61,522 nt of DNA from Gammaproteobacteria bacterium (GTDB lineage: Bacteria; Pseudomonadota; Gammaproteobacteria; GCA-001735895): contig JAIBDO010000001.1 of the NCBI GenBank assembly GCA_024686195.1, forward strand, positions 1-61,522. The letters run 5' to 3'. This document shows, one piece after another, positions 5,798 to 36,609 of this stretch. Position numbers and translations under genes: made by a program. Position 1 is the stretch's first letter. Each line of letters begins with the position of its first letter. Under the pieces are notes generated by a model. The model searched no databases and was not told where the DNA came from. It was given only the letters and a program-made list of their open reading frames with translations.

Positions 5798-6688
5798 ATG
5801 CGACAGATACGTTCAGTACAGGCGTTAAAAACTTTTGAAGCGGCTGCGAGACACCTGAGTTTCAAGTATGCGGCGCAGGAACTGTGCGTTACTGCCACCG
5901 CGATCAGTCACCAGATCAAAACTCTCGAGGCTCAGCTGGGTTTCGTGCTGTTCAAACGCAAGGTGCGACGGATTGAGCTGACGGACCAGGGGTATGAATT
6001 GTTTAATACCCTGCGCAAAGCTTTCGACGACATAGACGACACCATCAACCAGATTGAAACGCGCAGTAAACGTGATGTCGTGACCCTGGGCCTCGGACCA
6101 ATTATCGGAGCACGTTGGTTGGCACCTCGGCTCGGAGACCTCTGGGAAAGCCATCCCGACATTGACTTGCGCCTGCACCACATCACCTTTCCGCTACAGA
6201 AAAGTGCCGATTTGTTCGACCTCGCGATCGCCTGGGGAGATGGTCACTGGCCACAAATGGAAGTCACGCCGTTCATCGATATCAAGTTGACCCCGGTGAT
6301 GTCACCGCAACTGCCACAACCTGGCCAGGCGGCGGATCTGTTGCAGCAGGTGTTAATTCACGAGCGTAACCGTAAGGGATGGCAACAGTGGTTTGCGCAA
6401 GCCGGAGTCGAATACGATGGAACCGCCGGGACCACCATCGATGATGCCAATCTGGTGCTGCAGGCCACGCTCAATGCACAGGGTGTTTCGCTTGGAATTT
6501 TGCCATTTGTTAGCGAAGATCTGCGCAATGGCAAGTTAGTTCGACCGTTTGACCTTGCCGTCGACCCCGAGTTTTCCTACTACCTGATTTATCGCAAGAA
6601 GAGCCTTAACAAGCCCGCAGTTGAGGCGGTGAGGGACTGGTTGCTCTCCAATATTCAGCAATCGGAGCCGCCTGCACGGGCCCGGTGA
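5798..6688 (+). CDS. LysR-family transcriptional regulator (GcvA-like)
   Basis: 296 aa with an N-terminal wHTH (FKYAAQELCVTATAISHQIKTLE) and a LysR substrate-binding domain. Divergent from the MttB-family operon. Confidence 0.9.
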   Translation: MRQIRSVQALKTFEAAARHLSFKYAAQELCVTATAISHQIKTLEAQLGFVLFKRKVRRIELTDQGYELFNTLRKAFDDIDDTINQIETRSKRDVVTLGLGPIIGARWLAPRLGDLWESHPDIDLRLHHITFPLQKSADLFDLAIAWGDGHWPQMEVTPFIDIKLTPVMSPQLPQPGQAADLLQQVLIHERNRKGWQQWFAQAGVEYDGTAGTTIDDANLVLQATLNAQGVSLGILPFVSEDLRNGKLVRPFDLAVDPEFSYYLIYRKKSLNKPAVEAVRDWLLSNIQQSEPPARAR

Positions 6689-7167
6689 TCTTGAAATGAT
6701 GGTAGTCAGGGACTGTGGACCACAGCGCTTATGGAGCGGTGTAAAGATGTTCTGCATGACTTCATGCCAAGCGTGATTGCTCGACATTTTCCAGTCGTCG
6801 TTAGTCCAGAGGGCTGCAGCGGAACTGTCGACAGAATTTGCAAATGGACGCTGAGGACAGGTGTCGAAGAGTACAAAAATGCCGCCAAAGCGGCACAACT
6901 GGTAAGCTCGCGGCCTTGATAAGCTGGCGGTATATGGCTATACATAGTGGTTCAGGAATGATAGGCAGACAACAGTCTGTAGAGTTTGAGCCTTAATCAA
7001 TGGTTTTCGCTAATTGATCGAAATGAGGCAGGGAACATTTATCGAGAATGCGATACACGATTGATCACCCGAAGACTAGTGATGAACCCGGTCATGGGTT
7101 GAATTGCTCGCCAACGGATTGTTGAGTTTCTCACATTTAACATCTTACAGATGAAAGGAAAAGTTTC

Positions 7168-27786: not shown

Positions 27787-28185
27787 CTAAATGTCCCGAT
27801 ATCGTTTAGGTTGTTGCATCATTTCAAGGACCAGCTCCTCGGCACCAAAACCGCCACGATTCGGTGTCAAAGCTTCCTGTCCGCTATAGCCCAATGCTTT
27901 TTTGACGCTGCTATCCATCAGGTAAGCGGCGCAAATCAGGGTCATCAGCAGATTGAAATCGGTTTCAGACAAGTGCGCTAAAAAATCTTCCGCGTCACTG
28001 TCAAAGCGATCCAGGATGGTGCAGAAATTGCCGGCAAGTTCGGGCCGGGATTTCAGCGCTCGATCGATTCCGGCATACTCCAGATCAATTTCTGCTGCTG
28101 ACGGTTGGCCATGTGCACCTGGTAGAATGCAACGCGCGAGCAGCGCGATTTTGTTTCTCTGATCTTCTGACAGTTGCAAAATCAT
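27787..28185 (-). CDS. Gluconate 2-dehydrogenase subunit 3-like small protein (partner of the GMC oxidoreductase)
   Basis: 132 aa with the N-terminal pattern LSEDQRNKIALLARCILPGAHGQPSAAEI typical of that family. The ATGA overlap with the upstream GMC gene implies coupling. No Tat or signal sequence is seen. Confidence 0.6.
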   Translation of the reverse strand: MILQLSEDQRNKIALLARCILPGAHGQPSAAEIDLEYAGIDRALKSRPELAGNFCTILDRFDSDAEDFLAHLSETDFNLLMTLICAAYLMDSSVKKALGYSGQEALTPNRGGFGAEELVLEMMQQPKRYRDI

Positions 28186-29795
28186 TGACTGGCCACCCCT
28201 GTGTCATAGCGGGTTTTTATCAGTTGATTCGCGCAGCGCCGCGCCAGAGCCGCGATGGTGGCAGCCGGGTTCACTGATGACGAGGTAACGAAGACGCTAC
28301 CGTCGATAATGTAAAGGTTTTCCACGTCATGACTGCGCATCCATGGATCTACTACCGAGGTCTGTGGATCGCTACCCATACGACAGGTACCAAGGGCATG
28401 CCAACCATTGTCGGTAACCAACCGGCGTGCGCTGGTGTCGTAGGCGCCGGCTTCCTGGAAGGATTCGATGGCACGTGATGTCATAAAATCAAGCATACGC
28501 CGACTGTTTTCCGACACCTGATAGTGAATTCGAATCGTTGGGTCTCCATCAGCATCTACATGATCCCTGTCCACAACCAGGCGGTTGTGCGGGTCGGGTA
28601 GATCTTCCGCGGTTATTCCCCACACGGCTGATCGCCCCAACCACCTGTTGACTCGATGATGCAGGGCATTACCCCAGCTGCGTGCTTCGTCCATTGGATA
28701 TAATGCGGCACCCAATGGTCCACCGGATGGTCCCAGGTTCCACTTGGCGCCGCGTACGAAATCATGTTCCGCCCGGGTCTCGGAAAACTCCATCGAGTAA
28801 ATACTCTGGCCCCAGTGGCCTTGCCAGCTCATCATTGGCTCGTCAAAGAAGCCGACGATTCGACTCAGTGGATGCATCATCAGGTTGCGACCCACCTGGC
28901 CGGAACGGTTAGCGAGACCATCCGGGAACTGCGAATTCGCCGAATTGAGCAATAGCCGCGCACTGCCGATGGCATGGCAGGCCAATAGCACGAGGTTGGC
29001 ATCAACTCGCTGAGTGTTGCCCTCGGCGTCTCGATAAAGTGCTGCCGAGGCCTGACCTTTGTCGTTTAACAGGATGCGGAAAACGCGCGCACCGGTGACC
29101 AGCTTTACCCCATTGGCCAGGGCCTCGGGCCAGTGGCTACGGTCAACCGATGCCTTGGCACCTTCGTTACAGCCCGCTCGACAAGTCGAGCGCTGCACAC
29201 AGGGGCGTCGGTTTCGATAGGGTTGCGAGGCGATGGCATTGCTGCCCGGCCACCAGTGCCAGCCAAGTCGATGATGCGCCTTCGCGACCTTCTCGCCCCA
29301 GGTCTGAATCGGCAGGGGTGGTAATGGATACTCCGGGTGGTCGGGGTAGGCAGGGTCCCCGGCAATCCCCGATACGCCGAACTCCTGGTCGTTGAGGTCA
29401 TAATAAGGTGCCAGATCGCGGTAGCTGATCGGCCAGTCATCTGCGACTCCATCGAGGCTCCTGACGCAAAAATCACCCGGTTGAAACCTCATCCAGTGAG
29501 CACTGTAAAGGATCGTGCTGCCGCCTACAGCGTTGTACAGCATCGGCTTTATCTCGCTACTGTCGTCGAGAATCGGATAGTCAGCCGGTGCCTGGCGGAT
29601 GTTGGGATTGGCGTGCCATGGGCCCATGGCCTGCAATTCAAAATCTGTTTTGTCGCCGGGATAAGCGCCGGGATCGGGCCATTCACCCTGTTCCAGGCAG
29701 GTGATGGCGATGCCGGCGCGGGACAGTTCAAGCGCCGCTACCGCGCCCGATAACCCGGCACCGATAATCAGTACTTCTGTGGTAGTGGTAGACAT
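28182..29795 (-). CDS. GMC-family FAD oxidoreductase
   Basis: 537 aa with N-terminal VLIIGAGLSGAVAALEL and C-terminal GWHALGTCRMG...NLYIIDGSVF. Confidence 0.9.
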   Translation of the reverse strand: MSTTTTEVLIIGAGLSGAVAALELSRAGIAITCLEQGEWPDPGAYPGDKTDFELQAMGPWHANPNIRQAPADYPILDDSSEIKPMLYNAVGGSTILYSAHWMRFQPGDFCVRSLDGVADDWPISYRDLAPYYDLNDQEFGVSGIAGDPAYPDHPEYPLPPLPIQTWGEKVAKAHHRLGWHWWPGSNAIASQPYRNRRPCVQRSTCRAGCNEGAKASVDRSHWPEALANGVKLVTGARVFRILLNDKGQASAALYRDAEGNTQRVDANLVLLACHAIGSARLLLNSANSQFPDGLANRSGQVGRNLMMHPLSRIVGFFDEPMMSWQGHWGQSIYSMEFSETRAEHDFVRGAKWNLGPSGGPLGAALYPMDEARSWGNALHHRVNRWLGRSAVWGITAEDLPDPHNRLVVDRDHVDADGDPTIRIHYQVSENSRRMLDFMTSRAIESFQEAGAYDTSARRLVTDNGWHALGTCRMGSDPQTSVVDPWMRSHDVENLYIIDGSVFVTSSSVNPAATIAALARRCANQLIKTRYDTGVASQ

Positions 29796-29907: not shown

Positions 29908-30903
29908 ATGGCGCGGAAACGCTGGACAATCGGCATTACCCATTTGATTAAACCGCCGTTTGAGGCTGAACTGGAAGCCTTCAATCAGCAAGCTGATATC
30001 GTGTATTTCAGCGGGCACGATGCTCACGATTACGATGCTGCAGAAATGCAGCGGCTTGACGCAATGCTGGTATGGACCCCGGCTATAGATGAAACGATCG
30101 CCGCGAAACTGGCAAAATGCAAGATACTGGTGCGTTACGGTGTCGGTTACGACAAGATCGATGTTGCTGCTCTTGCACGACATGGCATTGCCTTCTCCAA
30201 TAATCCTGAATACGGCCCCGAAGACGTTGCAGATACTGCAATGGCCATGTTGCTCGCACTGCAAAGGCGCATTGTGGAACACGACTGCAAAGCCCGTGCA
30301 TACCGTGAGGGATGGCAGGAAAATCATCTAAGCCCGATGCGCCACTCGCGCCATTGCCGGGTAGGCATCGTCGGTTTGGGTCGAATCGGTAGCAGTTTGA
30401 GCCTGCGCCTCAAACCTTTCGGTTATAAGGTGATGGCTTATGATCCCTATGTGAGTAACGGCATGTACCGTGCGCTCGACGTGGAACGAGCTGCATCTCT
30501 CGCAGAACTTGTGTCGCAGGTCGATGTACTTTCGATGCATTGCCCACTGACCGCAGAGACGCGCGGCATGATCAATGCTCAGCTGCTCGCCGCGGCCAAA
30601 CCCGGACTGATTTTTGTTAATACCGCGCGCGGACCGCTGATCGATAATCTCGATATCATCGAAACAGGTTTGCGCAGCGGCCAGCTGGCAGCGGCTGGGC
30701 TCGATGTTCTGCCCGCAGAGCCCCCTTTGGATCATCCGCTAATTACGGCCTGGCGGGAAAATGCGGACTGGTTACAGGGACGCTTGTTGATTACACCGCA
30801 TAACGCGTTTCATTCTGATTATGCCTTTGCCGAGTGCCGCTCCAATGCCGCACAAACCGCGCGCCTGTTTCTAGAAGATAATGTGCATCGTAATGCCGTT
30901 TAA
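29908..30903 (+). CDS. D-isomer-specific 2-hydroxyacid dehydrogenase family protein
   Basis: 331 aa with NAD fold VGIVGLGRIGSSL and catalytic-region motifs (NTARG, ITPHNAFHS). Confidence 0.9.
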   Translation: MARKRWTIGITHLIKPPFEAELEAFNQQADIVYFSGHDAHDYDAAEMQRLDAMLVWTPAIDETIAAKLAKCKILVRYGVGYDKIDVAALARHGIAFSNNPEYGPEDVADTAMAMLLALQRRIVEHDCKARAYREGWQENHLSPMRHSRHCRVGIVGLGRIGSSLSLRLKPFGYKVMAYDPYVSNGMYRALDVERAASLAELVSQVDVLSMHCPLTAETRGMINAQLLAAAKPGLIFVNTARGPLIDNLDIIETGLRSGQLAAAGLDVLPAEPPLDHPLITAWRENADWLQGRLLITPHNAFHSDYAFAECRSNAAQTARLFLEDNVHRNAV

Positions 30904-30986: not shown

Positions 30987-31301
30987 ATGAGCATAGCGAA
31001 GATCGGGCCTCACGACCTCGGCGGTGATGATGCCGGTAAGGTTTCACCTCTAAGTCGGGATCTGCAATGGTGGGAAAAACGCATCGATGCGCTGTATCGT
31101 TTGCTGGCGGATGATCGACGTATGATTCTGCAAGTGGACGAGTTGCGCGCGGCAATCGAAGCCCTCGGTGACGATGTTTATGCGCGCCATGACTACTATG
31201 AGCGCTGGACCCTGGCGCTGCGTAACCTGCTGATCGCCAAGCAGGTGCTTGATGAAGCGGAAATCGAAACGCGCATATCCCAATTGAAACAAAACCGCTA
31301 A
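30987..31301 (+). CDS. Nitrile hydratase family, N-terminal half of the beta subunit as a separate polypeptide
   Basis: 104 aa: ...GPHDLGG...WWEKRIDALYRLL...YYERWTLALRNLLIAKQVL, which matches the NHase beta N-domain pattern. It ends TAATG, sharing 1 nt with the next start. Confidence 0.85.
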   Translation: MSIAKIGPHDLGGDDAGKVSPLSRDLQWWEKRIDALYRLLADDRRMILQVDELRAAIEALGDDVYARHDYYERWTLALRNLLIAKQVLDEAEIETRISQLKQNR

Positions 31302-31606
31302 TGACGCTGGCGCCGAAATTCAAGCAAGGTGACCCGGTGCAGGTATGCGCACGCGATGTCGCGCATCACCGTCGCACGCCATCCTATGTGCAGGGACGAC
31401 GTGGATACATCGAACGTTTTTGCGGTGCTTTCGCAAATCCCGAACTACTCGCACAGGGCCGGGACGGGTTGCCGCTGATCAATCTGTATCGTGTTCGCTT
31501 CGAGCAGGCTGAGCTGTGGACAACAGCAGAGGTAGATGCCGGCGATGATAGCGTCGATGTTGAAATTTATGAACACTGGTTGAGGCAATGCGATGAACCA
31601 TTCTGA
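31301..31606 (+). CDS. Nitrile hydratase family, C-terminal (SH3-like) half of the beta subunit as a separate polypeptide
   Basis: 101 aa: FKQGDPVQV...HHRRTPSYVQGRRGYIERF...NLYRVRFEQAELW...VDVEIYEHWL, which matches the NHase beta C-domain pattern. Confidence 0.85.
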   Translation: MTLAPKFKQGDPVQVCARDVAHHRRTPSYVQGRRGYIERFCGAFANPELLAQGRDGLPLINLYRVRFEQAELWTTAEVDAGDDSVDVEIYEHWLRQCDEPF

Positions 31607-32261
31607 TCACCCGCCACACGATCACTCATCACATGATCATCAACCCCCACCCGATGAAGGCCGACAGCTCAGTGATGTTCAATACCTGGAAATCGCACTG
31701 CGCGAGTTATTGATTGAAAAGGGCGTTATCAATGCCGATGAAATTCGCGCGGGTGTTGAAGCACTGGATGCGGTAACTCCCGCACAGGGAGCCCGGGTTG
31801 TTGCCAGGGCCTGGTGCGATGATCAGTTTCGTCAACGTCTGTTGGCTGACGGCAGCAAGGCCTGTATTGAGCTTGGGATCGATATCCGCCCGACCCGGTT
31901 GGTGGTCGTCGAAAATACGGATAACTGGCACAACGTGATCGTCTGTACCCTGTGTTCCTGTTATCCGCGCCTGTTACTGGGTTTGCCCCCGGACTGGTAC
32001 AAGTCGCGCGAATACCGCTCCAGAGTGGTGAGGGAACCGCGCAAGGTGCTTGCTGAATTTGGCACTCAATTGCCTGCGGGTGTCAGTTTGCGCGTGCATG
32101 ACAGCACGGCCGACATGCGCTACCTGGTGTTACCGCGGCGGCCGGCGAATAGCGAACACCTTGATGAGGAACAACTGGCAGCGCTGGTGACGCGCGATAG
32201 CATGATCGGGGTAACCCTGGTGCAGACCTCTTTAGTTCGAACCCAGGCAATCCCAGATTGA
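31593..32261 (+). CDS. Nitrile hydratase alpha subunit, cobalt-type active-site motif, with a His-rich N-terminal extension
   Basis: 222 aa. Metal site VCTLCSCYP at nt 31944-31961, followed by LGLPPDWYKSREYRSRVVREPRKVL. The N-terminus reads MNHSDHPPHDHSSHDHQ. Overlaps the previous gene by 14 nt. Confidence 0.9.
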   Translation: MNHSDHPPHDHSSHDHQPPPDEGRQLSDVQYLEIALRELLIEKGVINADEIRAGVEALDAVTPAQGARVVARAWCDDQFRQRLLADGSKACIELGIDIRPTRLVVVENTDNWHNVIVCTLCSCYPRLLLGLPPDWYKSREYRSRVVREPRKVLAEFGTQLPAGVSLRVHDSTADMRYLVLPRRPANSEHLDEEQLAALVTRDSMIGVTLVQTSLVRTQAIPD

Positions 32262-32271
32262 GTCGAACTGG

Positions 32272-33678
32272 TTAGTCGGAACCTGGATAACGCAGTGCGG
32301 GGCACAAGGATTCGAAATGTGCAGCAGTCGATAGTAGAAGTGATTCTTCGAAGGGGCGAGCCACCAGTTGAATGGCGGTTGGCAGACCGTTGCTGTCACA
32401 GCCGCTCGGAATCGAAATTGCCGGCAGGCCGAGATAATTGGCAAATCGGGTCATGGTTGCTACCTGCGAAAAGGCATGGTCAACTTCTCTGGCCTGCAGT
32501 GCATCGGTCGAAAGGAAAGCGGGTGCGACAGGCAGCGATACCGGCATTATCAGTAAATCTGCTTCTCCCATTACCTCTTCAATGAATGATTGCAGCAGCT
32601 GTGGCCGCAATGACAAAGCTTCGATGTAACGCACTGCCGGGATTTCGAGCCCTCCCTCGATAACGCTGCGCACCGCATGAGACATGCACGGGTCGTTATT
32701 GCGCAGGGCCTGTTCATGCATCGCCGCACCTTCGCTCTTAACCAATACCTGTTGCAAGCTGGTATAGAGGTCGAGATCCGGAATCCGGGCAGGTTCAAGC
32801 CCATAACCAGCCCCGCCAAGCAGGTCGAGCGCCTGGCCAAAGTTAGGGTCAGTCTGGCGATGGAGCCGGGTAGCCGCGTCGTCGACAAGACCGATACTGG
32901 GTAGATCAGCCGGTTGGCTGGTCGGCAGATTACAGCTCACAGCAGCGCTGGCCACCGAACTGGCGTCTAGCGGATCCTGCCCGAGTATGGCATTGAACAC
33001 GATGCTGGCGTCGCGGCAACTGCGAGTCAGTGGACCGATACAATCCATCGACCAGGTGCGAGCCATTGCACCATGTCGGCTTACTCTCCCATAGCTGGGC
33101 TTGAGCCCGACAACGCCGCAAAATGCAGCCGGAAGGCGAATCGAACCTCCGGCATCTGAACCCAGTGCCGCATAGGCAAGACCTGCGGCGACAGCGGCGG
33201 CGCTGCCACCCGATGAACCACCGGTATTATGTGCCGTGTTCCAGGGGTTCCGACAGCGACCGAAATGTGCATTGTCACCCGTACCGCCGGCGGCCAGTTC
33301 ATCGAGATTAAGCGTGCCGAGAATAACGGCACCGGCGTCCTCAAGTTTCTGTAGAACGGTGGCATGCTGATTGCTGGTGCTGCGTGTCAGGCTGCTACCC
33401 CCACTTGCGCAATAACCCGGGAAGTCGAAGATATCTTTGATCGCAAGCGGTACCCCGTGCAGCGGCCCACGCCAGTTGCCTGCCTCCAGTTCACGGTCGA
33501 GTTGTTGTGCTCGTAGCAGGGCAGAGTCGTCAAAAATTTTAATGAAACAATTTAGCTTGGGATTTTGTTGGTGGATTCGCTCCAGCATCAATGAAGTCAA
33601 CGCTTTACTGCTGACGTCGCGAGCCTGCAGCATGGCGCTGACCTCACCGAGCGAGCGATAAGCCAGGGCCCTGGTCAT
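32272..33678 (-). CDS. Amidase (amidase-signature family)
   Basis: 468 aa with KDIFD...GGSSGGSAAAVAAGL (Ser-cisSer-Lys signature region). Convergent with the nitrile hydratase genes. Confidence 0.9.
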   Translation of the reverse strand: MTRALAYRSLGEVSAMLQARDVSSKALTSLMLERIHQQNPKLNCFIKIFDDSALLRAQQLDRELEAGNWRGPLHGVPLAIKDIFDFPGYCASGGSSLTRSTSNQHATVLQKLEDAGAVILGTLNLDELAAGGTGDNAHFGRCRNPWNTAHNTGGSSGGSAAAVAAGLAYAALGSDAGGSIRLPAAFCGVVGLKPSYGRVSRHGAMARTWSMDCIGPLTRSCRDASIVFNAILGQDPLDASSVASAAVSCNLPTSQPADLPSIGLVDDAATRLHRQTDPNFGQALDLLGGAGYGLEPARIPDLDLYTSLQQVLVKSEGAAMHEQALRNNDPCMSHAVRSVIEGGLEIPAVRYIEALSLRPQLLQSFIEEVMGEADLLIMPVSLPVAPAFLSTDALQAREVDHAFSQVATMTRFANYLGLPAISIPSGCDSNGLPTAIQLVARPFEESLLLSTAAHFESLCPALRYPGSD

Positions 33679-33890
33679 TTCAATCTGCCGAAGTCGGCGA
33701 GTTGTGCAAGGTACACGGTAAATTGAAACGGATCAGGAAGAGGGGCCGGTTTCGCCGTCGGTAACTGGATATCGAGATATGTAGCAAGACTCACTGGCGT
33801 TGATTTTTCGTCCTGTGGGGCGAATGCCTGAGTTGGATCCGCTTTGTCGCTTTGTGCTGTAAGCGGCGAAGTTTGGTGTTCGTCTCTCAT
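33675..33890 (-). CDS. Small hypothetical protein translationally coupled to the amidase
   Basis: 71-aa ORF whose TGA overlaps the amidase ATG (ATGA). The amidase has no obvious SD of its own, and neither does this ORF. Confidence 0.4.
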   Translation of the reverse strand: MRDEHQTSPLTAQSDKADPTQAFAPQDEKSTPVSLATYLDIQLPTAKPAPLPDPFQFTVYLAQLADFGRLK

Positions 33891-33950: not shown

Positions 33951-36005
33951 ATGACCAGTGAAACTAACTCCGTCGATCGGCAAACGGCAACCCAATTGCG
34001 TTCCGATCGCGATGAATTGTACCAGTTGCGGCGAACCCGTGAACAGCTGGTGCAGATCATGGATTCCCTGCCGGGCCTGGTGGGCTACGTCGATCTGGAT
34101 CTTAAAATAGTCTATGCCAACCAACTGATCGAGACCTGGTATCAAATGTCGCGCACTGAACTGGTTGGCATGGAGTTGAAAACTCTTTTTACCGAAGAGC
34201 ATTACAAAACCGTCGAAGCTCTGCTGCAACGGGTCTTGTCCGGCGAGGAGATCAACGACGAACGTGATATCAGCTATCCCGATGGTGTAACCCGGCGGGT
34301 GCATTTGAACTACATTCCTGATCGCGATGAGGCAGGGATAAATGGCTACTTTTTCCTGGTGCGTGATGTGTCGGAGCGTTATGCCGCAGAGCTCGCGCTA
34401 AAGCAGGCCAATGAATTTCTCGACGGTAAAGTGCGTGCAGCTACCTTTGAGCTTGAACAACGCAACGCCGATCTGCAGCGCGAAAATGCGGCGCGGCGAC
34501 AAAGTGAAGAGCGCTATCGGATCGTTTCCGAATTGATGTCTGATCTCATTTACGTTTACCAGATCGATGCCGATGGAGCGATGAAGACGGTGTGGCAGAC
34601 CGGGCGTCTCAGCGAAGAGTTTTCGCCGCGGCATACAGATGATGGACATCACCGGTTATGGCGCCCGATTGTCCATCCGGATGACGAAACGATTCTGGAT
34701 CAGCGTATTAAACGGCTGTTGCAAAATAACAGTTCCATCGATGAGTTTCGGGTTATTGACAGGCAGGGAGTGACGCGTTGGTTGCGTGCCTTTGGCCGGC
34801 CGATCTGGGATGACGATGAGCAGAGAGTCACCCAGATCATGGTGGCCACACAGGACATCACCGAGACCAAGGTCGCCGAACAATTGCTGGAACGTAACCG
34901 GCAGATGCTCAGTGCCGCGCTCGATTCCATGTCTGAAGGGTTCATGCTCTTCGACGAAGATGGCAAGCTGCTCGAGTTCAATGAAAAATTGAAGGAGTTG
35001 TTCCCAAAGACGGCTCACAGTTTTGCCAGGGGTGTCAGTTTTGAGGAATTGCTGCGTATCAGCGCGACTTCGGGTGAAGTCAAAGCCGCGCAGCAGGACC
35101 CGCTGAAATGGGTGGCCGAACGCCTGGAAAAATACCCCAGCGACAGCGGATCGGTCGAGGTGGAACTGAGCGATGGTCGCTGGATGTTGTCGACCGATCG
35201 GCGTACGCGTTTTAACGGTGTCGTTGGCATCCGTACCGACATTACCGAGCGCAAGCGTGCCGAGGAATTACGGCGCCAGCAGGAGGCGGAGCTGGCACAG
35301 GTATTGCGGCGCGCATCGATGGGTGAAATGGCGTCGGCACTGGCGCACGAACTGAGCCAGCCGCTGGCGGTTGTGGTGAATTATGCTAATGGGCTGCTGC
35401 GCCGACTGGATGAATCTCCGGTAAACGTCGATAGCGCCAGTGAAGCGCTCGGCAATATCAGCGAGGCGGGGCAGCGTGCCAAGGACATCATCAATCATGT
35501 AGGTGATTTCGTGCGCCTGGGAACACCGGAGGTCGCTGACGAAAGTTTTCCCAGCCTGGTGAACGATGTGCACGAAATGTTGCGTGATCGGTTACAGCGT
35601 AATCATGTGGAACTAACCAGTAACCTGGACGCTCGCGACATTCGGGTTGAAGTCAATAAGATCGAGATCCGCCAGGTTTTATTTAACCTGATCAACAACA
35701 GCATCGAGGCTCTACAACAGGTGGAGTCTGCAAGACGGGAGATTGATATCGAGTGTTCTATCGCGAACGGCGAGTTTTTGCTGGTTGCGGTCAGTGACAA
35801 TGGTCCCGGGATCGAGTCGCAGGTTGCCGAATCCCTGTTCGAACCTTATGTCACAACCAAGAGCAAGGGGCTGGGTATGGGATTATCGATCAGTCGCACC
35901 ATTCTCGAAGCCCATGGCAGTCGGCTGTGGTATGACCGCGAAGCGGGAAGCGGGGCCTGTCTGCGCTTTCGCCTGCCGTTGGTGGAGGCTGGCGATGACA
36001 GCTGA
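33951..36005 (+). CDS. Cytoplasmic multi-PAS sensor histidine kinase
   Basis: 684 aa with no TM segments and repeated PAS-like segments. H-box MASALAHELSQPL, N-box LFNLINNSIEA, G-boxes DNGPGI and GLGMGLSI. Confidence 0.9.
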   Translation: MTSETNSVDRQTATQLRSDRDELYQLRRTREQLVQIMDSLPGLVGYVDLDLKIVYANQLIETWYQMSRTELVGMELKTLFTEEHYKTVEALLQRVLSGEEINDERDISYPDGVTRRVHLNYIPDRDEAGINGYFFLVRDVSERYAAELALKQANEFLDGKVRAATFELEQRNADLQRENAARRQSEERYRIVSELMSDLIYVYQIDADGAMKTVWQTGRLSEEFSPRHTDDGHHRLWRPIVHPDDETILDQRIKRLLQNNSSIDEFRVIDRQGVTRWLRAFGRPIWDDDEQRVTQIMVATQDITETKVAEQLLERNRQMLSAALDSMSEGFMLFDEDGKLLEFNEKLKELFPKTAHSFARGVSFEELLRISATSGEVKAAQQDPLKWVAERLEKYPSDSGSVEVELSDGRWMLSTDRRTRFNGVVGIRTDITERKRAEELRRQQEAELAQVLRRASMGEMASALAHELSQPLAVVVNYANGLLRRLDESPVNVDSASEALGNISEAGQRAKDIINHVGDFVRLGTPEVADESFPSLVNDVHEMLRDRLQRNHVELTSNLDARDIRVEVNKIEIRQVLFNLINNSIEALQQVESARREIDIECSIANGEFLLVAVSDNGPGIESQVAESLFEPYVTTKSKGLGMGLSISRTILEAHGSRLWYDREAGSGACLRFRLPLVEAGDDS

Positions 36006-36609
36006 TACTGCTGGAACGGTCCATATCGTCGATGACGATCAGACGGTGAGCCAGTCGATGAAATTCCTGGTCGAATCGATTGGCCTGCAGGCGCTGTGTT
36101 ATACCTCGGCTTCCGAGTTCTTTGATCGTTATCGAGACTATGGTGCGGGTTGCCTGATCCTCGATCTGCGCATGCCTGGAATCAGCGGACTGGAAGCGCT
36201 GGAGCTCATTCTTGAAAAACAGATTAATGAGCCGGTGATCGTGGTTACCGGACACGGTGATGTACCTGCTGCCGTGCGTGCCCTGAAGCTCGGTGCAATC
36301 GATTTTGTCGAAAAACCCTGCAACGATAACCTGTTGATCCAGAAAATAAATCATGCCATCGATCTAGACCAGCGAAATCGTGTCAACCGCGCGCGCCGTG
36401 AATCGATAAACCAGGCCTATCTCTCGCTCACCGTTCGTGAACGTGATGTTTTACAGTTACTGGTTAGCGGCAATTCCAACAAGGCCGTTGCGCGGGACCT
36501 GATCTTGAGCCCAAAAACGGTGGAACGGCATCGGGCCAATATTATGCGTAAACTCGATGTCGGTTCTTTTGCCGAACTGGTGCGTGACTTTTCCGAGCCA
36601 GAAAGTTAG
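35995..36609 (+). CDS. FixJ/NarL-type response regulator (REC + LuxR HTH)
   Basis: The true start is ATG 35995 (MTADTAGTVHIVDDDQTV...), overlapping the kinase stop. Receiver Asp in LILDLRMPG. LuxR HTH: ERDVLQLLVSGNSNKAVARDLILSPKTVERHRANIMRKL. The track's longer ORF (35743) reads through the kinase gene. Confidence 0.9.
   Translation: MTADTAGTVHIVDDDQTVSQSMKFLVESIGLQALCYTSASEFFDRYRDYGAGCLILDLRMPGISGLEALELILEKQINEPVIVVTGHGDVPAAVRALKLGAIDFVEKPCNDNLLIQKINHAIDLDQRNRVNRARRESINQAYLSLTVRERDVLQLLVSGNSNKAVARDLILSPKTVERHRANIMRKLDVGSFAELVRDFSEPES

What the first reader, a model, noticed from the sequence alone, without database searches (positions are those of the whole stretch)
30987..32261. Three-polypeptide nitrile-hydratase-family enzyme with the beta subunit split into two translationally coupled genes
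The usual NHase beta subunit is encoded here as two ORFs. The first covers the N-terminal helical domain (104 aa, PHDLGG...YYERW). The second covers the C-terminal SH3-like domain (101 aa, GDPVQV...LYRVRFEQAELW...EHWL). They are joined by a TAATG stop/start overlap and followed by an alpha subunit with the cobalt-type VCTLCSCY site.

The order beta-N, beta-C, alpha matches what I recall for thiocyanate hydrolase (scnB-scnA-scnC). A split beta is also known for toyocamycin nitrile hydratase. Those enzymes have substrates other than simple nitriles, so the substrate here is open. An amidase is convergent immediately downstream, which would fit a nitrile to amide to acid route.
Basis: partly seen in the sequence, partly recalled or inferred. 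Interest (0 to 1): 0.6.

Follow-up and report, generated by a model that had tools for sequence, protein, structure and literature searches.

The report
Three-gene split-beta cobalt nitrile hydratase
Three overlapping genes encode a cobalt-type nitrile hydratase whose beta subunit is permanently made as two small proteins, a layout already characterised in Streptomyces and common in environmental bacteria, so this is an uncharacterised member of a known enzyme type with an unknown nitrile substrate.

Summary
The window holds betaN (30987-31301, 104 aa), betaC (31301-31606, 101 aa, TAATG overlap) and a Co-type alpha (31593-32261, 222 aa, VCTLCSCY).

The split is not a recent nonsense mutation:
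- Relatives with 90% and 66% identical betaN keep two beta genes, each with a different stop/start junction.
- 79 further loci from at least seven phyla show betaN, betaC and alpha as separate genes.
- At least 7,960 clusters of stand-alone betaN-like proteins exist in public data.

The catalytic residues are all present: the alpha Cys-Cys-Ser-Cys claw, both beta arginines and the beta Tyr/Trp.

On an alpha-subunit tree, thiocyanate hydrolase sits as a long branch inside this split-beta lineage. Both share a CYPR motif. The window's enzyme fails every thiocyanate-hydrolase-specific test.

The architecture is published for S. canus AnhD-AnhE-AnhA, for ToyJKL and for thiocyanate hydrolase. This scan has already noted it in more than 100 other genomes.

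Specific to this locus is a cassette conserved in relatives:
- GMC oxidoreductase
- D-2-hydroxyacid dehydrogenase
- the three hydratase genes
- an amidase with a small partner ORF
- a two-component sensor

No activator gene is present. The substrate is unknown; a hydroxylated nitrile is my guess.

Verdict: new member of a known kind, modest interest.

The parts
30987..31301 (+). betaN: the N-terminal helical half of the NHase beta subunit (104 aa, 12.1 kDa). Key residues are the HDLGG motif, R54 (31146-31148), E58, Y70, Y71 and W74. By analogy with AnhD it is probably also a self-subunit-swapping and cobalt chaperone.
   Evidence: - Pfam NHase_beta_N, 1.6e-15.
- The family profile aligns to residues 1-95 of classical beta and to 44-142 of SCNase beta.
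- AlphaFold model: pLDDT 82.6, all-helical, TM 0.77 to SCNase beta and 0.70-0.75 to most NHase betas.
- Residue conservation.
- An AGGA Shine-Dalgarno-like site lies 9 nt upstream.
31301..31606 (+). betaC: the C-terminal SH3-like half of the beta subunit (101 aa, 11.6 kDa). H23, R25 (31373-31375) and W93 are invariant or nearly so in the family. Its start overlaps the betaN stop (TAATG) and it has no Shine-Dalgarno site of its own, which points to termination-reinitiation coupling.
   Evidence: - Pfam NHase_beta_C, 8e-20.
- The family profile aligns to P. putida beta 129-219 and to SCNase alpha 34-126.
- AlphaFold model: pLDDT 89.8, TM 0.87 and rmsd 1.6 to SCNase alpha 2dd4_A, TM 0.86 to Co-NHase beta.
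- Junction sequence.
31593..32261 (+). alpha: the catalytic cobalt-type subunit (222 aa, 25.0 kDa). It overlaps betaC by 14 nt, and a GAGG site lies about 8 nt upstream.
   Evidence: - Pfam NHase_alpha, 7.5e-80.
- NCBIfam TIGR01323: 251.8 bits against a cut-off of 249.85.
- 189-227 bits to solved Co-NHase alphas.
31593..31643 (+). His-rich N-terminal tail of alpha (MNHSDHPPHDHSSHDHQ, 6 His in 17 residues). It is a possible metal-capture tail.
   Evidence: - 82% of 78 split-family alphas have at least 3 His in this tail, against 19% of 16 classical alphas.
- Eukaryotic beta-alpha fusions carry a His-rich linker at the same place (PMC3323583).
31941..31970 (+). Metal-binding claw V117-C118-T119-L120-C121-S122-C123-Y124-P125-R126. 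Thr119 and Tyr124 mark the Co type. Arg126 is the lineage marker shared with thiocyanate hydrolase.
   Evidence: - Read directly from the sequence.
- The CYP(R/K) motif occurs in 75 of 78 split-family alphas with a readable motif (three Chloroflexota rows read CHSR) and in 6 of 6 true SCNase gammas.
- The 16 classical alphas have W, F or T at this position.
32272..33678 (-). Convergent amidase-signature enzyme (468 aa). It is the probable second step, amide to acid plus ammonia.
   Evidence: - Pfam Amidase, 1.9e-96. The best NCBIfam match is the AtzE family, but at 311.9 bits it is below the 461-bit cut-off.
- Conserved in the same position in L003 (46%), L111 (90%) and L113 (65%).
33675..33890 (-). 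71-aa ORF whose stop overlaps the amidase start. It is a possible small partner subunit.
   Evidence: - No Pfam or NCBIfam match.
- A homologous ORF is kept upstream of the amidase in L111 (54% identity) and L113 (37%).
29908..30903 (+). D-isomer-specific 2-hydroxyacid dehydrogenase (331 aa), 83 nt upstream of betaN on the same strand.
   Evidence: - Pfam 2-Hacid_dh_C, 7e-45.
- Conserved directly upstream of betaN in L111 (95%, partial) and in L113 and L114 (75%).
- 2-HADH genes also lie near the three hydratase genes in Chloroflexota loci L057, L063, L070 and L079.
27787..29795 (-). GMC flavoprotein oxidoreductase (28182-29795, 537 aa) with a coupled 132-aa small ORF (27787-28185). It is divergent from the hydratase operon.
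   Evidence: - Pfam GMC_oxred_C and GMC_oxred_N.
- 80-82% identical copies lie in the same position in L113 and L114.
- 41-44% identical GMC genes lie beside the Chloroflexota loci.
33951..36609 (+). PAS sensor histidine kinase (33951-36005) followed by a LuxR-type response regulator. The regulator lies in the ORF that ends at 36609; its start was not fixed. This pair is a candidate regulator of the cassette.
   Evidence: - Pfam PAS, HisKA and HATPase_c.
- The same kinase, plus a Response_reg/GerE gene, follows the amidase in L113, and the kinase is also present in L003.

Best explanation
The three genes encode an active cobalt-type nitrile hydratase built from three polypeptides. By analogy with S. 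canus AnhD2E2A2 and the ToyJKL (alpha-beta-gamma)2 hexamer it is probably a dimer of trimers.

Roles of the parts:
- Alpha carries the Co(III) site: Cys118, Cys121 (to become sulfinate), Ser122 and Cys123 (to become sulfenate).
- BetaN supplies Arg54, Tyr70 and Trp74.
- BetaC supplies Arg25.
- Together the two beta pieces replace a normal beta subunit, minus its linker of about 30 residues.

Expression: the genes are read from one mRNA. BetaC is translated by reinitiation at the TAATG overlap.

Maturation: no activator gene accompanies the operon. Maturation therefore probably relies on betaN acting as a self-subunit-swapping and metal chaperone, as shown for AnhD, helped by the His-rich alpha tail.

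Pathway: the enzyme hydrates an organic nitrile to its amide, and the convergent amidase releases ammonia and the acid. The conserved neighbouring 2-hydroxyacid dehydrogenase and GMC oxidoreductase suggest that the substrate carries a hydroxyl group, for example a cyanohydrin or another hydroxynitrile. In that case the product hydroxy acid would be oxidised onward.

Shown here: gene structure, homology, folds, residue conservation, conservation of the split, conservation of the cassette. Inferred: activity, metal, stoichiometry, chaperone role. The substrate is the weakest inference; I put about 0.25 on a hydroxynitrile.
For: Homology and folds:
- Domain assignments and the NCBIfam nitrile_alph equivalog score just above its cut-off.
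- Best solved relatives are Co-type NHases.
- Models of both beta halves superpose on NHase beta and on SCNase beta and alpha, TM 0.77 and 0.87.

Residues:
- Invariant or near-invariant: betaN H9, D10, G13, R54, E58, Y70, W74; betaC H23, R25, W93.

The split is maintained by selection:
- 79 sets of betaN, betaC and alpha genes in other loci. In 45 the betaN stop and betaC start overlap, and in only 13 are the two genes in the same frame.
- Close relatives have different junction sequences.

Activator:
- The only TIGR03889 accessory protein in the genome lies beside the second, classical NHase on contig C139.

Cassette:
- The GMC, 2-HADH, three hydratase genes, amidase, small ORF and sensor kinase are conserved in L113, where betaN is 66% identical. 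L111 (3.4 kb, betaN 90% identical) holds the part from the 2-HADH to the small ORF.

Precedent:
- AnhDEA is an active Co enzyme without an activator, and AnhD acts as chaperone (PMC7329996).
- ToyJKL is a heterohexamer of 21.2, 10 and 11.4 kDa subunits (PMC8574189).
Against: - No activity, metal or expression data exist for this protein.
- BetaN and betaC score far below the NCBIfam beta equivalog cut-off (49 and 62 bits against 152). This is expected for halves but is formally not met.
- The alpha score passes its equivalog cut-off by only 2 bits.
- The window's betaN has Ala55 where 74 of 78 family members and all SCNases have Arg, so its pocket differs from the family norm.
- Across the 80 family loci the neighbours vary (SDR, luciferase-like oxidoreductase, hydrolases). 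Context therefore gives no family-wide substrate clue, and the hydroxynitrile idea rests on this sub-clade alone.
Confidence: 0.82

Rival explanations
1. It is a thiocyanate hydrolase (SCN- to COS + NH3), as the scnB-scnA-scnC gene order suggests.
For: - Same gene order and three subunits.
- It shares the CYPR motif (Arg126) with true SCNase gammas.
- SCNase nests inside the split-beta lineage on the alpha tree.
- The best fold matches of both beta halves include SCNase chains.
Against: - Alpha scores 211.6 bits on the SCNase-gamma equivalog TIGR03887. The cut-off is 291.45 and true SCNases score 380-397 bits.
- On the tree the window groups with L003 and L004, far from the SCNase clade.
- It lacks the N-terminal extensions of about 40 aa on SCNase beta and about 30 aa on SCNase alpha.
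- At SCNase-specific positions it keeps the NHase residue: betaN E58 (SCNase N) and E72 (G); betaC H23 (Y), P27 (Q/M) and H92 (R).
- It has no 126-140 aa gene downstream of alpha of the kind seen in all SCNase loci whose contig reaches that far.
- An amidase partner makes sense for an amide product, not for COS.
Confidence: 0.03
2. The split is a recent nonsense mutation or an assembly error in a normal beta gene, leaving a decaying or inactive operon.
For: A single stop codon separates the two halves. The genome also has a complete classical NHase that could make this copy dispensable.
Against: - There is no linker-coding remnant. The two ORFs together cover both Pfam domains and nothing more.
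- The stop is kept in relatives whose betaN is 99%, 90%, 66% and about 35-53% identical, with different junction sequences.
- 66 of 79 loci have betaC in a different reading frame from betaN.
- The functional residues are invariant.
Confidence: 0.01
3. ORF1 (betaN) is only an activator or chaperone of the NhlE/P14K kind. The working enzyme would then be alpha plus betaC alone.
For: - BetaN gives a weak match to the accessory-protein model TIGR03889 (18.7 bits, E 0.0013).
- NHase activators are known to resemble beta.
- AnhD acts as a chaperone (PMC7329996).
- Earlier notes of this scan report natural operons with alpha plus betaC only (e1-1436552, e1-907467; not checked here).
Against: - BetaN keeps the catalytic-site residues of a true beta: R54, equivalent to betaArg52 of the Pseudonocardia and P. 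putida enzymes, plus Y70 and W74. It also keeps the HDxGG N-terminus.
- The genome's genuine accessory protein lacks these residues.
- In S. canus both AnhD and AnhE are required for activity (PMC7329996).
Confidence: 0.06

Closest known systems
Three-subunit Co-type nitrile hydratase of Streptomyces canus CGMCC 13662 (AnhD-AnhE-AnhA; Guo et al. 2019, 2020; PMC7329996)
   Same: - Gene order: beta N-half, beta C-half, alpha.
- Subunit sizes: 10.4, 11.4 and 21.3 kDa there; 12.1, 11.6 and 25.0 kDa here.
- Co-type alpha.
- No activator gene.
   Different: - The organisms are an actinomycete and a gammaproteobacterium.
- AnhDEA was found through its hydration of acetamiprid, a pesticide. Here the genes sit in a conserved cassette with an amidase, a 2-HADH and a GMC oxidoreductase.
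- I do not know whether AnhA has the CYPR arginine.
Thiocyanate hydrolase ScnB-ScnA-ScnC (Thiobacillus thioparus, PDB 2DD4)
   Same: - Three subunits in the same gene order.
- Same lineage on the alpha tree.
- Shared CTLCSCYPR motif.
- Shared betaN R73 and, in 4 of the 6 SCNases sampled, betaC W93.
- Often a His-rich alpha N-terminus.
- Best structural match for both beta halves.
   Different: - The window fails the SCNase gamma equivalog score (211.6 against 291.45).
- It lacks the N-terminal extensions of ScnB and ScnA.
- It lacks the SCNase-specific substitutions.
- It lacks the gene found downstream of alpha in SCNase loci.
- It is paired with an amidase.
Toyocamycin nitrile hydratase ToyJKL (Streptomyces rimosus)
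   Same: It has three polypeptides, 21.2, 10 and 11.4 kDa, forming an (alpha-beta-gamma)2 hexamer (PMC8574189, PMC12648386). It shows that split-beta enzymes can have dedicated natural-product substrates.
   Different: ToyJKL sits in a 7-deazapurine biosynthetic cluster, and no such genes are present here. Sequence comparison was not possible with these tools. From memory, not tested, the toy gene order puts alpha first.
Classical two-subunit Co-type NHase with activator (e.g. P. putida NRRL-18668, PDB 3QXE; Pseudonocardia thermophila, PDB 1IRE)
   Same: - Same catalytic claw, the same two beta arginines and the same Tyr and Trp.
- Highest alpha sequence scores (189-227 bits).
- A classical copy exists in this same genome on contig C139.
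   Different: - The classical enzyme has one beta polypeptide of about 220 aa with a linker.
- It has Trp, Phe or Thr in place of Arg126.
- It needs an activator gene.
- It forms a separate clan on the alpha tree (SH-aLRT 99).

Membership tests
Nitrile hydratase, cobalt type (EC 4.2.1.84) | Alpha subunit with the C-(T/S)-L-C-S-C metal claw, with Thr and Tyr marking cobalt (VCTLCSCY) | tested here: met
   VCTLCSCYPR at alpha residues 117-126. Pfam NHase_alpha, 7.5e-80.
Nitrile hydratase, cobalt type (EC 4.2.1.84) | Alpha passes the curated equivalog model TIGR01323 | tested here: met
   251.8 bits against a cut-off of 249.85, so it passes by only 2 bits.
Nitrile hydratase, cobalt type (EC 4.2.1.84) | Beta subunit passes the equivalog model TIGR03888 as one protein | tested here: not met
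   The halves score 49 and 62 bits against a cut-off of 152. Together they cover model positions 3-98 and 136-225, so the failure is due to the split.
Nitrile hydratase, cobalt type (EC 4.2.1.84) | Two beta arginines that hydrogen-bond the oxidised cysteines, plus the catalytic Tyr | tested here: met
   BetaN R54 and Y70 are invariant in the split family, SCNase and classical sets. BetaC R25 is present in 76 of 77 split-family rows and in all SCNase and classical rows. They align to betaArg52 and Tyr68 and to the GH(T)R motif of solved enzymes.
Nitrile hydratase, cobalt type (EC 4.2.1.84) | Cobalt content, Cys-SO2H and Cys-SOH modification, and nitrile-to-amide activity | not testable with these tools
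   This needs expression, ICP-MS, mass spectrometry and enzyme assays.
Three-subunit (split-beta) nitrile hydratases (AnhDEA type) | Separate genes for the beta N-half and C-half, followed by alpha | tested here: met
   The arrangement is conserved in 79 further loci and in close relatives.
Three-subunit (split-beta) nitrile hydratases (AnhDEA type) | No activator or accessory gene with the operon | tested here: met
   No TIGR03889 match lies in the window apart from an 18-bit echo inside betaN. The only true accessory gene is on contig C139.
Three-subunit (split-beta) nitrile hydratases (AnhDEA type) | Sequence orthology to AnhD, AnhE and AnhA, or to ToyJ, ToyK and ToyL | not testable with these tools
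   Neither set of sequences could be fetched. The single genome-contig scan returned no actinomycete locus among its best 80.
Thiocyanate hydrolase (SCNase) | Gamma subunit passes the equivalog model TIGR03887 | tested here: not met
   211.6 bits against a cut-off of 291.45. Nine true SCNases in the same class score 380-397 bits.
Thiocyanate hydrolase (SCNase) | Gene order scnB (beta N-like), scnA (beta C-like), scnC (alpha-like) | tested here: met
Thiocyanate hydrolase (SCNase) | N-terminal extensions on ScnB and ScnA, and SCNase-specific residues | tested here: not met
   The family profiles align to ScnB 44-142 and ScnA 34-126 only. At betaN positions 58 and 72 and betaC positions 23, 27, 46 and 92 the window has the split-family residue, which at betaN 58 and betaC 23 and 27 is also the classical NHase residue, and never the SCNase one.
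Thiocyanate hydrolase (SCNase) | Placement inside the SCNase clade on a tree | tested here: not met
   SCNase is one clan (SH-aLRT 100). The window lies in a different clade with L003 and L004 (SH-aLRT 96).

The most novel reading that the evidence does not exclude
The conserved cassette (GMC oxidoreductase with its small subunit, D-2-hydroxyacid dehydrogenase, split-beta NHase, AtzE-like amidase with a small partner, PAS kinase and LuxR regulator) is a dedicated, regulated pathway. In it marine Gammaproteobacteria would use a natural hydroxylated or otherwise polar nitrile, such as a cyanohydrin or hydroxynitrile, as a nitrogen and carbon source. The lineage-wide Arg126, shared only with thiocyanate hydrolase, would mark a branch of the family tuned to polar or anionic nitriles and matured without an activator.
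Probability: 0.25. Interest if true: 0.5.

Novelty: new member of a known kind. Interest (0 to 1): 0.25.

Why it matters
For enzymology the case is ordinary. Split-beta, activator-free cobalt nitrile hydratases are already described, and they are common in environmental genomes.

Three points have modest value:
- Thiocyanate hydrolase appears as a specialised offshoot inside this large split-beta lineage. The shared active-site arginine (CYPR) is therefore a lineage marker, not evidence of thiocyanate use.
- This genome carries a classical, activator-dependent NHase and a split, activator-less one. That makes it a natural pair for comparing maturation routes.
- The conserved cassette with an amidase, a hydroxyacid dehydrogenase and a GMC oxidoreductase gives a concrete, testable lead to a natural nitrile substrate in marine bacteria, where the sources and sinks of nitriles and amides are poorly known.

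Tried and rejected
- Recent nonsense mutation: rejected by close and distant relatives.
- Thiocyanate hydrolase: rejected on equivalog score, tree position, missing extensions and signature residues.
- Family-wide gene context as a substrate clue: clustering the neighbours of 80 loci gave mostly lineage-specific partners. In Binatia these were an SDR, a luciferase-like oxidoreductase and an MBL hydrolase, with the SDR inserted between betaN and betaC. There was no universal partner. My naive ORF calling was noisy in high-GC loci.
- Horizontal-transfer signal: GC content across 22-40 kb shows no sharp step. DNA-level synteny with five same-genus genomes extends only to the genes at about 24.5-27 kb, at 70-75% identity, which is too divergent to say more.
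- Promoter and terminator scans: no more hits than in shuffled sequence.
- Two literature searches for the role of SCNase gammaArg136 returned nothing usable. That role is recalled from memory only.
- The AnhDEA and ToyJKL sequences could not be obtained for a direct comparison.
- The 71-aa ORF has no Pfam or NCBIfam match, so an AtzG- or GatC-like identity is not shown.
Full report
**Observation.**
- 30987-31301 encodes 104 aa.
- 31301-31606 encodes 101 aa.
- 31593-32261 encodes 222 aa.

The first stop and the second start share one base (TAATG), and the third gene overlaps the second by 14 nt. Pfam assigns them to NHase_beta_N (1.6e-15), NHase_beta_C (8e-20) and NHase_alpha (7.5e-80). BetaN has an AGGA site and alpha a GAGG site at Shine-Dalgarno distance. 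BetaC has none, which fits reinitiation at the overlap. A 468-aa amidase converges on alpha with 10 nt between the two stops.

**Is the split real and old?** Yes.
- A word-indexed search with betaN found stand-alone proteins of 103-111 aa at 99, 90, 67, 63 and about 50% identity.
- One scan of species-representative genomes found 162 relatives. In 78 of the best 80 loci, betaN, betaC and alpha are separate genes in that order. They come mostly from Alphaproteobacteria and Binatia, and also from Gammaproteobacteria, Nitrospirota, Chloroflexota, Methylomirabilota and Myxococcota.
- Counting the window as well, that gives 79 sets of the three genes. In 45 the betaN stop overlaps the betaC start, most often as ATGA.
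- In 22 loci, almost all Binatia, a whole short-chain dehydrogenase gene sits between the two halves.
- In only 13 are the halves in the same frame.
- Contigs carrying the 90% and 67% identical betaN proteins (66% by tblastn) keep the split with different junctions: TGATG and ATGA against TAATG here.

**What the pieces are.**
- Profiles of the family align betaN to residues 1-95 of solved beta subunits and to 44-142 of thiocyanate hydrolase beta.
- They align betaC to residues 129-219 of P. putida beta and to 34-126 of thiocyanate hydrolase alpha.
- Only the linker of about 30 residues in a normal beta is missing.
- The AlphaFold model of betaN has pLDDT 82.6, is helical, and matches 2dd4_B at TM 0.77.
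- The model of betaC has pLDDT 89.8, is a barrel, matches 2dd4_A at TM 0.87 and rmsd 1.6, and matches Co-NHase betas at TM 0.86.
- BetaN R54, E58, Y70, Y71 and W74 correspond to betaArg52, Glu56, Tyr68, Tyr69 and Trp72 of the P. putida and Pseudonocardia enzymes. BetaC R25 corresponds to the second active-site arginine.
- R54, E58 and Y70 are invariant across 78 family members, and Y71, W74 and betaC R25 are kept in all but one.
- Alpha carries VCTLCSCY and passes the NCBIfam nitrile hydratase alpha equivalog by 2 bits.

**Relation to thiocyanate hydrolase.** I retrieved true SCNase operons from the same class. Their gamma subunits score 380-397 bits on TIGR03887, the cut-off is 291, and the window scores 211.
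- These gammas read CTLCSCYPRP. The arginine three residues after the last cysteine is also present in the split-family alphas (Lys in two; three Chloroflexota rows read CHSR), whereas 16 classical alphas have Trp, Phe or Thr there.
- On a 100-sequence alpha tree the classical enzymes form one clan (SH-aLRT 99).
- SCNase forms a long-branched clan (SH-aLRT 100) nested among split-beta enzymes (a clade at 97).
- The window sits elsewhere, with two gammaproteobacterial loci (SH-aLRT 96).
- Residues shared by the split family and SCNase but not by classical enzymes include betaN R73 and betaC W93.
- At positions where SCNase is unique the window keeps the split-family residue, which at betaN 58 and betaC 23 and 27 is also the classical one: betaN 58 (E, not N) and 72 (E, not G), and betaC 23 (H, not Y), 27, 46 and 92.
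- The window also lacks the N-terminal extensions of ScnB and ScnA.
- It lacks the 126-140 aa gene that follows scnC.

The gene order is therefore a lineage trait and not evidence of thiocyanate use. One caveat: the classical sample comes from a single class, and the tree was a quick search and is unrooted.

**Maturation.**
- The genome has a second, classical operon on another contig: alpha of 212 aa, an intact beta of 222 aa, and an accessory protein that passes TIGR03889.
- That accessory gene is the only one in the assembly. None accompanies the split operon.
- For the S. canus three-subunit enzyme, cobalt enters without an activator and AnhD (the beta N-half) acts as a self-subunit-swapping and metal chaperone (PMC7329996). 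I infer the same here.
- The alpha N-terminus has six His in 17 residues. Such tails occur in 82% of split-family alphas against 19% of classical ones.
- Eukaryotic beta-alpha fusions have a His-rich linker at the equivalent place (PMC3323583).

**Context and substrate.**
- Across the family the neighbours vary.
- In this sub-clade a cassette is conserved. In L113 and L114 the GMC oxidoreductase is 80-82% identical, the D-2-hydroxyacid dehydrogenase 75%, the three hydratase proteins 66-70%, the amidase 65% and the small ORF upstream of the amidase 37%. A PAS kinase with a response regulator follows.
- L003 shares the amidase and the kinase.
- Four Chloroflexota loci with very divergent hydratase genes also have a GMC oxidoreductase (three of them, 41-44% identical) and a 2-HADH nearby.
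- This suggests, but does not show, a route from nitrile to amide to hydroxy acid to oxo acid.
- Twenty-four other species of the same genus lack the split betaN, so the cassette is an accessory trait.

**Novelty.**
- The architecture is published for S. canus AnhDEA (PMC7329996), for ToyJKL (PMC12648386, PMC8574189) and for SCNase.
- This scan has already recorded it in more than 100 genomes, with the same conclusion.
- I therefore file it as a new member of a known kind.

**Limits.**
- The structural role of Arg126 rests on my memory of the SCNase structure paper, not on a test.

Noticed in passing
L090:3596-4254 and L095:1435-2089 (probably also L094 and L099): Alpha-first, activator-containing operons of the classical clade in other Gammaproteobacteria also encode beta as two overlapping ORFs: 103 + 115 aa in L090 and 108 + 118 aa in L095. 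Splitting of beta has therefore arisen more than once and is not confined to the CYPR lineage.
   Followed up: partly
P0010 and P0012 (about 200 aa; Burkholderiales metagenome proteins); also a second betaN-like copy upstream in L026, L031, L041, L048, L066 and L078: The top hits of the betaN profile are proteins made of two tandem betaN domains fused in one chain. Each domain keeps HHDMGG, DE(H/R)R and YYE(K/R)W. Some loci carry an extra stand-alone betaN paralogue. These may be dedicated swapping chaperones of the AnhD2A or NhlE2 kind.
   Followed up: partly
L012, L015, L017 and other Binatia loci, about 6300-7150: In about 20 Binatia genomes a complete short-chain dehydrogenase gene (261 aa) is inserted between betaN and betaC. 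The two halves of one subunit are therefore separated by an unrelated enzyme gene.
   Followed up: partly
G000 contig C139 (L001:414-2115, - strand): The same genome has a classical Co-type NHase operon: alpha of 212 aa with CYPF, an intact beta of 222 aa, and a TIGR03889 accessory protein of 128 aa. Same-genus genomes share this operon but not the split one.
   Followed up: yes
window 31146-31151 (betaN residues 54-55): The residue after the invariant Arg54 is Ala in the window. It is Arg in 74 of 78 family members and in all SCNases, and His, Phe or Tyr in most classical betas. The window's sub-clade has lost one of the lineage's pocket arginines.
   Followed up: partly
window 33675-33890 (-): The 71-aa ORF coupled to the amidase has no family match, but it is conserved upstream of the orthologous amidase in L111 (54% identity) and L113 (37%). 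It is likely a real small protein. L003 has no room for it.
   Followed up: partly
window 27787-29795 (-): The GMC flavoprotein with a coupled 132-aa ORF has no cytochrome subunit gene nearby. It is conserved next to the cassette in L113 and L114. GMC genes 41-44% identical lie beside the Chloroflexota split-NHase loci.
   Followed up: partly
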